The position numbers and the translations under genes are program-made. The notes below the pieces were generated by a model that saw only the letters and a program-made list of their open reading frames with translations, was not told the origin of the DNA and searched no databases. 19,638 bases of DNA from a virus. Taxonomy: Duplodnaviria > Heunggongvirae > Uroviricota > Caudoviricetes. Positions 2,659-3,302 of the stretch are shown here, piece after piece. The stretch is from IMG/VR virus record IMGVR_UViG_2778261223_000002; one strand, 5' to 3'. How positions within the stretch are numbered: the first letter of the stretch is position 1; each line of letters starts with the position of its first letter.

Positions 2659-3018
2659 GAAAAACAAATGAGGTATAGGTTTTTCAGCACTGGCGTTTTT
2701 TTCGCGGGGAAAGGTCTCGTATATCCTTTATCGCTCTCCCGAATTATAACGGAGACCAGTTATGATTTCGGTGCTGTGTTTTTTGACGCTATCGGAATAG
2801 TGCATTATTGGTGGGATTTTTGATATTTCCTGGCAGGGGCTGATTATGCACTATCCCGATGTTGTTAACATCACAAAATGAGGTGAACTCCATGTGCGGG
2901 GTGGTTTAAGTAGTTTAGCCGGGAAACTACAGTATCTGATGGAATGTCAGGTATTTCGGGAGGCACCCGACACCTCACTTGTATTATAATAATACTCTTC
3001 AGCACTTACTGATTTGAC

Positions 3019-3045
3019 CACCGCCTTAGCAGGCGGTTTTTTTTT
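3019..3045 (+). terminator. Intrinsic terminator
   Basis: Hairpin CCGCCT-TAGC-AGGCGG followed by 9 T. Confidence 0.6.
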
Positions 3046-3217
3046 GGTAATTTGCAGAATTGCATGCTGAATAAGCACTGCATCGTTAAAATTATAACTA
3101 ATTCCGAATATGCTGTGCTTGCTTATTGTTGGTTTGCTTACATTTTTGTATCTTGCTGCACCGCAGGATTCCCCTGTAACGACGATTGTATGATGAATCA
3201 TTTAAACTTTGTAATTT

Positions 3218-3249
3218 GCCAGCCAGTCTCTGGTGGCTGGCTTTTTTTT
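3218..3249 (+). terminator. Intrinsic terminator
   Basis: Hairpin GCCAGCC ... GGCTGGC followed by 8 T. Confidence 0.6.
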
Positions 3250-3302
3250 GCAAGGTGTTCCAGTAATTCTGTCGTCAGGCTGGATTCCCACATAACACAA
3301 AA

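What the first reader, a model, noticed from the sequence alone, without database searches (positions are those of the whole stretch)
2659..3302. 640-bp protein-poor stretch with two terminator-bounded units: candidate prophage sRNAs
Seen in sequence: between tRNA-Gly and tRNA-like Y there is no convincing protein gene, but there are two strong Rho-independent terminators (3019-3045 and 3218-3249), each preceded by 150-350 nt of sequence with internal inverted repeats (for example ATAGTGCAT at about 2796 pairing with ATGCACTAT at about 2850). Only tiny peptide ORFs with RBS-like sequences occur (MISVLCFLTLSE near 2763; MHYPDVVNITK near 2848). Established knowledge: lambdoid prophages of pathogenic E. 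coli have been reported to encode sRNAs and anti-sRNAs in this Q-proximal region. These could be regulatory RNAs or type I toxin-like micro-peptide loci.
Basis: partly seen in the sequence, partly recalled or inferred. Interest (0 to 1): 0.45.

Follow-up and report, generated by a model that had tools for sequence, protein, structure and literature searches.

The report
Two prophage small-RNA cassettes
A 640-bp gene-free gap in a pig-ETEC lambdoid prophage holds two terminator-ended non-coding RNA cassettes: one is a divergent relative of the known prophage small RNA STnc100, preceded by a conserved 86-nt RNA hairpin, and the other is an unnamed conserved RNA, so these are new members of a known kind, not a new system.

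Summary
Region 2659-3302 has no conserved ORF and two strong + strand intrinsic terminators (3020-3046, 3218-3249). The window is the late-operon leader of a lambdoid prophage of porcine ETEC: Q, a Q-linked pR'-tR' candidate, an AraC-like gene, a tRNA cluster, this gap, TerB, holins.

Unit 1 has three parts:
- A conserved 86-nt + strand RNA hairpin (2783-2868): 34 bp, with 18 column pairs showing G.U and none showing A.C.
- A multi-helix core (2873-2979). It is a sub-threshold but reciprocal match to the prophage sRNA family STnc100 (Rfam 27.6 bits against a 47-bit cut-off; my own model finds true STnc100 at E about 1e-6).
- An A/U linker and terminator.

A sigma70-like promoter in the hairpin tip would start the RNA exactly where the STnc100 model starts.

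Unit 2 (core 3093-3249) is a separate, unnamed cassette. It has an invariant single-stranded UUGUAUGAUGA, a U-rich tract and a terminator. Variants occur in about 9% of complete E. coli genomes.

The micro-ORFs and the RefSeq-annotated 84-aa ORF are not conserved.

Best reading: prophage sRNA genes, probably Hfq-type. Expression is untested. Interest is moderate.

The parts
2311..2338 (+). Sigma70-like promoter (TTGATT-16-TATTAT) 9 nt upstream of the tRNA cluster. Inferred upstream source of transcripts that cross the hairpin.
   Evidence: An equivalent TTGCTA-17-TATTAT sits upstream of the tRNA cluster in L008 (read from the sequence).
2659..2782 (+). Spacer / 3' trailer of tRNA-Gly. Moderately conserved. 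Contains an imperfect hairpin (2740-2772) and ends in the U-run that begins the long hairpin. No canonical terminator.
   Evidence: (only a weak candidate at 2704-2720).
2783..2868 (+). Conserved 86-nt RNA hairpin. It has 34 base pairs and an invariant 8-nt bulge UGGCAGGG.
   Evidence: RNAalifold on 12 distinct homologs. 98% of cells are paired, with 3 compensatory pairs and 12 pairs that vary on one side. 18 column pairs show G.U and 0 show A.C. dG is -30.7 kcal/mol on the + strand and -21.6 on the - strand.
2820..2847 (+). Sigma70-like promoter TTGATA-16-GATTAT inside the apical part of the hairpin. Predicted start is at about 2853-2854.
   Evidence: The predicted start coincides with position 1 of the STnc100 model alignment at 2854. 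It is comparably good in the L009-type variant (TTGATA-16-GATGAT) and weak in the Rac-like variants.
2853..3046 (+). Predicted unit 1 RNA of about 194 nt: small 5' hairpin, multi-helix core, A/U-rich linker, terminator.
   Evidence: Full-length alignment to Rfam STnc100 at 2854-3049. MFE -60.1 kcal/mol, z -3.3.
2873..2979 (+). STnc100-like core. Closing helix GAGGUG 2880-2885 / CACCUC 2971-2976 encloses four hairpins.
   Evidence: the closing-helix pair switches U-A to C-G in 5 sequences. Model R1 built from it finds bona fide STnc100 copies.
2957..2974 (+). Signature hairpin and helix strand CGGGAGGCACCCGACACC, shared with STnc100.
   Evidence: The exact pattern is found in at least 120 viral contigs.
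3020..3046 (+). Terminator T1 (ACCGCCUUAGCAGGCGGU + U9). It is the constant 3' end of the cassette.
   Evidence: Conserved with one covarying pair. The same terminator type follows other bodies.
3093..3249 (+). Unit 2 conserved core. No Rfam family and no conserved promoter.
   Evidence: Alignments of 7-14 variants. Found in 45 genomes with the window query and 462 genomes for the L009-type variant.
3186..3196 (+). Invariant, predicted single-stranded UUGUAUGAUGA. Candidate seed of unit 2, followed by a U-rich tract.
   Evidence: Invariant in all variants, though the IMG/VR variants were retrieved with a pattern containing TGTATGATGA. Unpaired in the consensus fold.
3218..3249 (+). Terminator T2 (GCCAGCCAGUCUCUGGUGGCUGGC + U8).
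   Evidence: One compensatory C-G to U-A pair among variants.
3250..3302 (+). Short spacer between T2 and the degenerate tRNA-Lys-like element Y.

Best explanation
The gap holds two independent non-coding RNA cassettes. They lie in the late-operon leader of a lambdoid prophage, downstream of the phage tRNA cluster and upstream of TerB and the lysis genes.

Cassette 1 (about 2783-3046) has a fixed frame and an exchangeable body.
- The fixed frame is a conserved 5' RNA hairpin and a conserved 3' intrinsic terminator.
- In this prophage the body is a multi-helix domain homologous to the STnc100 family of prophage sRNAs.

Inferred production of cassette 1:
- In the lysogen, a roughly 194-nt RNA is made from a sigma70 promoter embedded in the hairpin tip.
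- It may also be released from tRNA-operon or Q-antiterminated late transcripts by cleavage in the long hairpin. This would be RNase III-type processing, as for DicF.
- It ends at T1.

Cassette 2 (core 3093-3249) yields a second RNA ending at T2. It carries an invariant unpaired UUGUAUGAUGA next to a U-rich tract and a poly-U terminator.

Inferred function: both act as trans-acting, probably Hfq-associated, base-pairing regulators of host or prophage mRNAs. This rests on analogy with PasD1 and PasD2.

Shown here: non-coding nature, terminators, conserved RNA structure, relation to STnc100, modular distribution.
Inferred: transcript ends, processing, Hfq binding, trans action.
For: Context:
- The locus is Q, then AraC-like gene, tRNAs, gap, TerB, DUF3927 and holins. 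It is 100% identical in porcine ETEC strains.

Non-coding:
- No Pfam or PHROG hit for any ORF.
- The ORFs are broken in close relatives.

Terminators:
-.

Hairpin:
- 34 bp conserved in 12 distinct homologs, 98% paired against 40-55% when the partner columns are slid.
- Across the whole tested structure (68 pairs), 8 pairs change on both sides, against 3.5 in shuffles.
- 18 column pairs show G.U and 0 show A.C, which means selection on the + strand RNA.

Relation to STnc100:
- Full-length Rfam alignment, 27.6 bits, E 4e-4 in 511 nt and 1.2e-3 in 1.5 kb.
- The alignment starts at the predicted transcription start.
- The reciprocal model R1, built without the terminator, hits bona fide STnc100 in E2348/69 at 32.9 bits (E 2e-6) and many other copies at 34.2 bits in 864 kb.
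- The genomic niche is the same.

Family biology from papers:
- STnc100 copies are expressed in EDL933 and one was confirmed by Northern blot (PMC5331693).
- PasD1/2 depend on Hfq for stability and have RIL-seq targets (PMC8550237).
- PasD and STnc100 are structurally related (preprint 10.64898/2026.05.13.724894).

Cassette behaviour:
- The hairpin and terminator frame different bodies. In 62 loci retrieved by hairpin pattern alone, 37 had a recognisable STnc100-like core.
- A sample of the other 25 showed truncated cores, cores with a mutated motif, and a 75-nt short body.

Unit 2:
- 19 variants in the same niche.
- The conserved sequence sits in unpaired regions, followed by a U-rich tract and a terminator.
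Against: - No expression data of any kind could be examined.
- The Rfam score is well below the curated cut-off (27.6 against 47 bits). The effective number of sequences in my alignment is small (1.25), so covariation statistics are weak and the sequences are related by descent.
- The internal promoter is good only in the window-type and L009-type variants. In the Rac-like variants the -10 lacks the critical A.
- Selection on the hairpin as RNA implies transcription from upstream. The primary start is therefore unresolved.
- Unit 2 has no recognisable conserved promoter and little structure covariation (1 pair).
- No target could be predicted within the window.
- The function of STnc100 itself is unknown.
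Confidence: 0.5

Rival explanations
1. The elements act only in cis. A stack of three terminators (3020, 3218, 3411) insulates the lysis genes from the constitutive tRNA and moron promoters in the lysogen, and Q-modified polymerase reads through it. The long hairpin is a processing or stability site that separates tRNA precursors from the late mRNA. Any RNAs released are by-products without trans targets.
For: - Three strong + strand terminators lie in series between a good tRNA promoter and the lysis genes.
- The hairpin is selected as RNA, so it is read from upstream.
- Unit 2 has no conserved promoter.
- No in-window targets were found.
Against: - Insulation needs only terminators. It does not explain the conserved multi-helix core with compensatory changes.
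- It does not explain the invariant unpaired stretch of unit 2.
- Homologous STnc100 and PasD RNAs accumulate as discrete species and, for PasD, as Hfq-dependent species.
Confidence: 0.25
2. The stretch is mosaic debris: decaying copies of STnc100-like elements and tRNA-cluster spacers carried along by recombination between lambdoid prophages, with no present function.
For: - The modules are shuffled, truncated (L009-type) or interrupted by IS elements in relatives.
- Degenerate tRNA-Lys-like copies flank the region.
- The Rfam score is sub-threshold.
Against: - At 70-75% overall identity the helices stay 97% paired, with G.U-only exceptions.
- The hairpin tip and the unit 2 core contain invariant blocks.
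- The L009-type copy is at least 99% identical in 452 of 5426 genomes.
Confidence: 0.1
3. Unit 1 is the Q-dependent late promoter with its qut site, and T1 is tR'. The 194-nt RNA would be the counterpart of lambda 6S RNA or StxS.
For: - A promoter with an invariant block between -35 and -10, a conserved early transcribed region, and a terminator about 190 nt downstream resemble lambda pR'-6S-tR' (own knowledge of lambda).
Against: - A better candidate lies immediately after Q: TTGCAA-17-TATATT at 1087-1115 with a terminator at 1166-1193. That element co-varies with the Q type. The window and L008 (PF06323-type Q) share one version, and the DUF1133-type loci share another.
- The hairpin and unit 1 module occurs unchanged behind both Q types and downstream of the tRNAs.
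- The hairpin is selected as RNA from upstream transcription.
Confidence: 0.03
4. The stretch encodes micro-peptides or a type I toxin-antitoxin pair (MISVLCFLTLSE, MHYPDVVNITK, or the hydrophobic 27-aa ORF 3110-3193).
For: - The ORFs exist. The 27-aa ORF is hydrophobic and intact in the closest variants.
Against: - The start codon of the first ORF is ATA or TAG in relatives.
- The second ORF lies inside the hairpin stem and changes length from 11 to 24 aa.
- The 27-aa ORF loses its start or gains a stop in more distant variants, and its substitutions are almost all non-synonymous.
- There is no family hit and no antisense promoter or terminator.
Confidence: 0.03

Closest known systems
STnc100 (Rfam RF02076), prophage sRNA of Salmonella and pathogenic E. 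coli
   Same: - Same niche: lambdoid prophage, between Q and the lysis genes.
- Same length class, about 190 nt.
- Same architecture: small 5' hairpin, a closing helix GGUG/CACC around several hairpins, the last being CGGGAGGCACCCG, then an A/U linker and an intrinsic terminator.
- Reciprocal model hits.
   Different: - Scores 27.6 bits against the 47-bit gathering cut-off.
- BLAST similarity is limited to the 18-nt motif.
- It is preceded by a conserved 86-nt hairpin that true STnc100 loci lack, since a DUF3927 gene abuts them.
- It coexists with a true STnc100 in one locus (L009), so it is a paralogous clade.
PasD1 / PasD2 of EPEC E2348/69 (PMC8550237; preprint 10.64898/2026.05.13.724894)
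   Same: - Also sub-threshold relatives of STnc100 (37.7 and 41.4 bits).
- Also lie in the Q-to-lysis interval of lambdoid prophages.
- They provide the experimental precedent for Hfq dependence and trans targets.
   Different: - No BLAST similarity.
- No hit with my model R1.
- The PasD seed UGUGAG is absent from unit 1 (read from the sequence).
- PasD starts a few nt before the closing helix, from a clear TTGACT promoter.
DicF (Qin prophage) and 3'ETS-leuZ (tRNA operon trailer)
   Same: They are sRNAs released from longer prophage or tRNA-operon transcripts by RNase III or RNase E, and they end at an intrinsic terminator (own knowledge). This is the same logic as proposed for the hairpin plus unit 1 downstream of the tRNA cluster.
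   Different: There is no sequence relation, and processing here is only inferred.
Lambda 6S RNA / StxS (pR'-tR' short leader transcripts)
   Same: A promoter-proximal short transcript ending at a strong terminator in the late leader. StxS acts as an sRNA (own knowledge).
   Different: The true counterpart in this window is the Q-linked element at 1087-1193. Unit 1 is not linked to the Q type.
PasA / PasC
   Same: Prophage sRNAs near TerB, esterase and holin genes, with GCCAGC-type terminator stems.
   Different: They are encoded antisense to the late operon, with terminators that work on the opposite strand. Units 1 and 2 are sense-strand and share no sequence similarity with them.

Membership tests
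STnc100 (Rfam RF02076) | Covariance-model score at or above the curated gathering cut-off (47 bits) | tested here: not met
   27.6 bits at 2854-3049. E is 4e-4 in a 511-nt search and 1.2e-3 in 1.5 kb. No match at the gathering threshold.
STnc100 (Rfam RF02076) | Consensus architecture: closing helix around several hairpins ending with the CGGGAGGCACCCG hairpin, then an A/U linker and an intrinsic terminator | tested here: met
   Model alignment, MFE fold, consensus fold and pair counts on 12 homologs.
STnc100 (Rfam RF02076) | Reciprocal similarity: a model of this clade's core recovers bona fide STnc100 | tested here: met
   R1 hits L004 695-807 at 32.9 bits (E 1.9e-6), L009 3573-3680 at 28.3 bits, and many copies at 34.2 bits, all full-length and inside Rfam-defined STnc100 intervals. 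Caveat: most loci searched were retrieved through the shared 18-nt motif.
STnc100 (Rfam RF02076) | Location in a lambdoid prophage between the antiterminator Q and the lysis genes | tested here: met
STnc100 (Rfam RF02076) | Accumulates as a discrete RNA of about 160-210 nt | not testable with these tools
   No transcript data. EDL933 copies are expressed (PMC5331693).
PasD1/PasD2 | Sequence similarity to the E2348/69 genes, and the seed UGUGAG | tested here: not met
   No BLAST hit, no R1 hit on L003 or L005, and TGTGAG is absent from 2853-3046 (sequence).
PasA/PasC | Encoded antisense to the late operon with a terminator on that strand, and sequence similarity | tested here: not met
   PasA and PasC read on the opposite strand in L003 and L004. 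T1 and T2 have U-tails on the + strand only. No similarity.
Hfq-dependent base-pairing sRNA (class) | Intrinsic terminator with a long U tail, preceded by a U- or A/U-rich single-stranded stretch | tested here: met
   T1 has U9 and T2 has U8. Unit 1 has an A/U linker. Unit 2 has a U-rich tract.
Hfq-dependent base-pairing sRNA (class) | Binds Hfq and pairs with target mRNAs | not testable with these tools
   Only in-window complementarity could be searched, and nothing above chance was found.
Late promoter leader (pR'-qut-tR') | Lies immediately downstream of Q and co-varies with the Q type | tested here: not met
   The element at 1087-1193 meets this. The hairpin and unit 1 occur behind both PF06323-type and DUF1133-type Q.
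Type I toxin / micro-peptide locus | Small ORF conserved in frame among homologs | tested here: not met
tRNA-operon 3' trailer sRNA (3'ETS type) | No terminator between the last tRNA and the sRNA's terminator, with release by processing | tested here: inconclusive
   Between 2659 and 3020 there is only one weak terminator-like site (2704-2720) and a non-canonical hairpin plus U-run (2740-2785). Processing cannot be tested.

The most novel reading that the evidence does not exclude
The STnc100 superfamily, including unit 1, may not be a set of ordinary base-pairing sRNAs. It could be a structured, protein- or polymerase-binding RNA module of lambdoid late leaders.

Observations that prompt this reading:
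- It has a conserved multi-helix junction with invariant loops.
- It occurs in tandem arrays with a period of about 250 nt in some viral contigs.
- Here it is coupled to an 86-nt hairpin with an invariant UGGCAGGG bulge. That hairpin would switch between a processed read-through form and a promoter-initiated form.

Unit 2 would be a new Hfq sRNA family present in about 9% of E. coli genomes.
Probability: 0.15. Interest if true: 0.65.

Novelty: new member of a known kind. Interest (0 to 1): 0.35.

Why it matters
Prophage-encoded sRNAs rewire host and virulence gene expression in pathogenic E. coli. The known catalogue (STnc100, PasA-D, AgvB, AsxR, StxS, Esr41, DicF) comes mostly from EHEC and EPEC. 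This locus adds three things.

- A divergent STnc100-like clade that Rfam-based annotation misses. It is present at full length in 228 of 5426 complete E. coli genomes and partially in 841.
- A conserved 5' RNA hairpin that frames exchangeable bodies. This points to cassette-like evolution, and to a processing route for these RNAs.
- An unnamed second RNA family in about 9% of genomes.

All of this sits next to a phage tRNA cluster in porcine ETEC. It gives concrete, cheap targets for Northern, RIL-seq and RNase III experiments. It also flags a RefSeq 'hypothetical protein' as probably spurious.

Tried and rejected
Searches that found nothing or misled:
- Rfam at gathering threshold gave only the three tRNAs.
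- The weak VqmR, Qrr, GcvB and mir-983 hits reflect only the terminators or the long hairpin.
- BLAST against the E2348/69 PasA, PasB, PasC and PasD loci found nothing but the 18-nt STnc100 motif and terminator fragments.
- Pfam and PHROGs on the three longest ORFs gave no hits.

Hypotheses rejected:
- The late-promoter (pR'/qut) idea for unit 1. I rejected it after finding Q-type-specific promoter-terminator modules directly behind Q.
- A sigma54 reading of TGGCAG in the hairpin tip. The spacing to a GC element is 15-16 nt instead of 12 (read from the sequence).
- Unit 2 as a decayed STnc100. R1 does not hit it.

Target search:
- Within the window, the exact complement of UUGUAUGAUGA is absent.
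- duplexfold top hits are G.U-rich artefacts.
- The longest exact complement is 12 nt (two overlapping 11-mers).

Wasted or flawed calls:
Distribution outside E. coli is therefore unknown.
- Two giant-virus contigs in the hairpin scan were chance matches.
- The first two scripts failed on file paths.
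Full report
**Context.**
The window is the Q-to-tail part of a lambdoid prophage.
- The 644-bp finding is 100% identical in porcine ETEC chromosomes (ETEC1749, rl0044, PEC41) and 99.8% identical in UMNK88. It matches only 18 of 5426 complete E. coli genomes at megablast level.
- The RefSeq annotation of the identical locus reads as follows: RusA, antiterminator Q, a frameshifted TrmB-like gene, an AraC-family HTH gene, tRNA-Ile2, tRNA-Thr, tRNA-Gly, about 1.1 kb with nothing annotated, TerB, DUF3927, two holins, an endolysin.
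- ARAGORN and Rfam confirm the three tRNAs at 2348-2658.
- The finding is therefore the first 640 bp of an unannotated stretch in the late-operon leader, the position where Stx phages carry stx.

**The observation.**
- ORFs of 20-86 aa occur on both strands. None matches Pfam or PHROGs.
- In homologous loci the ORFs fall apart:
  - The 84-aa minus-strand ORF (2947-3201), which RefSeq calls hypothetical in some genomes, is frameshifted in variants 99.6% identical. The shift lies in the terminator's T-run. More distant variants carry in-frame stops.
  - The 86-aa TTG ORF has a stop in almost every variant.
  - The 65-aa ORF overlaps tRNA-Gly.
  - The first loses its ATG in relatives.
  - The second lies inside a hairpin stem and changes length.
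- A hydrophobic 27-aa ORF in unit 2 (3110-3193) is intact only in close variants. Its substitutions are nearly all non-synonymous. More distant variants lose the start codon or gain a stop.
- The terminators are real. T1 is 3020-3037 plus U9, and T2 is 3218-3241 plus U8. Their dG values are -11.3 and -16.5 kcal/mol, with z-scores of -3.0 and -4.3. The interval 2200-3800 holds 9 terminator-like sites against 1.4 expected.
- The inverted repeat is real (2797-2805 with 2846-2854).

**Where the late promoter is.**
The arrangement of a promoter, a 190-nt RNA and a terminator resembles lambda pR'-6S-tR', so I tested that idea.
- Directly behind Q (stop at 1082) lies TTGCAA-17-TATATT (1087-1115). About 50 nt further on is a strong hairpin with a U7 tail, AAAACCCGCCUCCGAGCGGGUUUUUUU (1166-1193, dG -12.9).
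- This module is conserved in another prophage with the same Q family (PF06323, L008).
- Prophages with a DUF1133/PHROG-753 Q-like protein share a different conserved promoter-terminator module at the same place.
- The element that co-varies with Q is therefore at 1087-1193. It is a roughly 70-nt, StxS-like leader.
- The hairpin and unit 1 module is found unchanged behind both Q types, and downstream of the tRNAs. It is not the late promoter.

**Unit 1, core.**
- A permissive Rfam scan aligns 2854-3049 end to end with STnc100 (RF02076) at 27.6 bits. The curated cut-off is 47 bits. E is 4e-4 in a 511-nt search and 1.2e-3 in a 1.5-kb search.
- For scale, on the same model a true STnc100 in E2348/69 scores 123.6 bits. 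The EPEC sRNAs PasD2 and PasD1 score 41.4 and 37.7 bits.
- The shared features are as follows:
  - a small 5' hairpin;
  - a closing helix (GAGGUG 2880-2885 with CACCUC 2971-2976) around four hairpins;
  - the last of those hairpins is CGGGAGGCACCCG (2957-2969), nearly identical to the family consensus;
  - an A/U-rich linker and a terminator.
- The MFE fold reproduces this architecture (-60.1 kcal/mol, z -3.3).
- I collected 12 distinct homologs at 70-80% identity from E. coli genomes, two phage records (SerU-LTIIb, vB_EcoS-683R6) and IMG/VR contigs.
- The consensus fold keeps every helix.
  - 97.2% of cells are paired, against 39-55% when the partner columns are slid.
  - 8 pairs change on both sides, against 3.5 +/- 1.0 in shuffles (0 of 500). 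One closing-helix pair switches U-A to C-G in five sequences.
  - These sequences are related (effective number 1.25), so the numbers are supportive, not conclusive.
- I built a covariance model of the core alone, without the terminator (R1).
  - Searched over 864 kb of fetched loci, it finds bona fide STnc100 copies full-length at 28-34 bits (E 1e-6 to 4e-5), inside the intervals Rfam assigns to STnc100. It does not find PasD.
  - Caveat: most loci searched had been fetched through the shared 18-nt motif.
- One locus (L009) carries both a truncated unit 1 and a true STnc100 (86.6 bits) 400 nt apart. Unit 1 is therefore a paralogous clade, not a mis-scored STnc100.

**Unit 1, the hairpin.**
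- The best-conserved part of the alignment is upstream of the core.
- RNAalifold pairs 2783-2868 into one hairpin of 34 bp. This is 28 bp plus 6 bp, separated by an invariant 8-nt bulge UGGCAGGG.
- It has 12 invariant pairs, 12 that vary on one side only while staying paired, and 3 compensatory pairs.
- Across the alignment, 18 column pairs show G.U and none shows A.C (binomial p about 4e-6).
- The + strand folds to -30.7 kcal/mol and the - strand to -21.6 kcal/mol.
- A DNA palindrome for a protein would not show this asymmetry. The structure is selected in the + strand RNA, which means this DNA is transcribed from upstream.
- The only good sigma70-like promoter upstream is the tRNA promoter (TTGATT-16-TATTAT, 2311-2338). 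No canonical terminator lies between tRNA-Gly and T1.
- The tip of the hairpin contains the second good promoter-like site of the region, TTGATA-16-GATTAT (2820-2847). Its predicted start (2853-2854) is the first aligned base of the STnc100 model.
  - This promoter is as good in the widespread L009-type variant (TTGATA-16-GATGAT).
  - It is poor in the Rac-like variants, where the -10 reads GGTGAT.
- If transcription starts there, the 3' arm folds into a small local hairpin like the 5' hairpin of STnc100. One compensatory change supports it (G-C to A-U in the window).
- I infer two routes to the same RNA: initiation inside the hairpin, and release from read-through transcripts by cleavage of the long stem. 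The second route is RNase III-type, as for DicF (own knowledge). Neither route could be tested.

**Cassette behaviour.**
- I retrieved 62 IMG/VR loci by the hairpin-tip pattern alone.
  - In 37, a recognisable STnc100-like core follows the hairpin.
  - A sample of the other 25 showed the truncated core of the L009 type, cores with a mutated motif, and an unrelated 75-nt body.
  - In the loci shown, the body was closed by the same type of terminator (ACCGCC-loop-GGCGG-U8).
- A fourth arrangement puts the hairpin in front of a short terminator and then unit 2 (L020, L132).
- The hairpin and terminator are thus a fixed frame around an exchangeable body.

**Unit 2.**
- The conserved core runs from 3093 to 3249.
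- With the window as query it is found in 45 genomes. A pattern scan of IMG/VR gives 68 loci and 19 distinct variants in four or five groups.
- The commonest group (L009 type) is at least 99% identical in 452 of the 462 genomes (out of 5426) that carry it. The family is therefore in about 9% of complete E. coli genomes.
- It is always on the sense strand of the late leader: after a terminator, a methyltransferase gene or the tRNAs, and before tRNAs, TolA-like, esterase or lysis genes.
- Structure is modest: a GCAGG/CCUGC hairpin, a weak 5' stem and the terminator, with one compensatory pair.
- Conservation sits in unpaired sequence. The clearest case is the invariant UUGUAUGAUGA (3186-3196), although the IMG/VR variants were retrieved with a pattern containing TGTATGATGA. 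A U-rich tract and the terminator follow it. This is the usual layout of an Hfq-binding sRNA 3' half (own knowledge).
- Sequences upstream of 3093 differ between groups. No sigma70 promoter reaches the scan threshold, so its origin is open (weak promoter, or read-through of T1 plus processing).
- No Rfam family matches. The VqmR and Qrr hits are terminator-driven.
- It is not PasA or PasC. Those are encoded on the opposite strand, with opposite-strand terminators.

**What is known.**
- STnc100 has 11 copies in EDL933. Most are transcribed and one was confirmed by Northern blot (PMC5331693).
- One copy lies 75 nt downstream of stx2B, and the RNA is found in OMVs (PMC12370729).
- The Rfam entry gives no function for it (PMC9029176).
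- PasD1 and PasD2 are abundant sRNAs whose stability depends on Hfq, and they have RIL-seq partners (PMC8550237).
- A 2026 preprint argues that PasD and STnc100 share an ancestor, and notes that TerB, RusA and Q genes are typical neighbours of Pas sRNAs (10.64898/2026.05.13.724894).
- The kind of element is therefore known. I found no description of this clade, its hairpin or unit 2 in Rfam or in the papers read.

**Verdict.**
- The sRNA interpretation is the best-supported one, at about 0.5 for discrete functional RNAs. A cis-only terminator and processing role is the main rival.
- The micro-peptide alternative is rejected.
- Novelty: new members of a known kind.
- Interest is moderate (0.35). 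It is useful for sRNA cataloguing and for testing cassette-like evolution and RNase III release. It would not surprise a specialist.

Noticed in passing
window 1087-1193: Likely late promoter and tR': TTGCAA-17-TATATT directly after the Q stop, then a strong hairpin AAAACCCGCCUCCGAGCGGG with a U7 tail about 50 nt downstream. This predicts a StxS-like leader RNA of about 70 nt. It is conserved with another PF06323-type Q prophage (L008). Prophages with a DUF1133-type Q carry a different conserved module at the same position.
   Followed up: partly
window 2424-2503 (X) and 3303-3386 (Y): Both tRNA-like elements align with genuine phage tRNA-Lys(UUU) genes of related prophages (L008, L020, L039). 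X keeps the anticodon loop CUUUUAA but has C at position 8 and a weak D stem, and no tool calls it. Y has a 5-nt insertion in the anticodon arm, and ARAGORN calls it an 82-nt 'tRNA-Val'. They are probably decayed tRNA-Lys copies bracketing the sRNA cassettes.
   Followed up: partly
window 3411-3437 and 3458-3648: A third strong + strand terminator follows Y. After it comes about 190 bp of non-coding sequence that is 80-87% conserved in other prophages just upstream of their lysis or TerB genes. It includes the palindrome TCTCTCTCCTCCAGAGAGA at 3524-3542. No Rfam match.
   Followed up: no
window 1608-2321 (promoter-like site 1545-1572): AraC-family HTH gene (Pfam HTH_AraC / HTH_18; PHROG 1450, unknown function) with its own near-consensus promoter ATGAGA-16-TATAAT. 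It is inserted between tR' and the tRNA cluster, like a regulatory moron.
   Followed up: no
window 2947-3201, minus strand: The 84-aa 'hypothetical protein' (WP_148725953.1) annotated in some RefSeq genomes spans T1 and parts of both RNA units. It is frameshifted in variants 99.6% identical, so it is probably a spurious call.
   Followed up: yes
IMG/VR loci L031 (386-989), L042 (1722-2342), L083 (4376-5458): Tandem arrays of three to six STnc100-like elements spaced about 250 nt apart in some viral contigs. More than 120 viral contigs carry the 18-nt signature motif.
   Followed up: no
IMG/VR loci L327, L341, L353: A third cassette type: the same 86-nt hairpin, then an unrelated 75-nt body (UAAGCAUCGCUCAGAAUAACGUUGAGAUUAAUCGCG...), then the same ACCGCC/GGCGG-U8 terminator.
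   Followed up: no
L009 (E. coli strain 1943) 2955-3475 and 462 other genomes: A defective prophage carries the hairpin, an internally deleted unit 1, a unit 2 variant and a true STnc100. It is at least 99% identical in 452 of the 462 complete E. coli genomes that carry it (out of 5426), and nothing is annotated there.
   Followed up: partly
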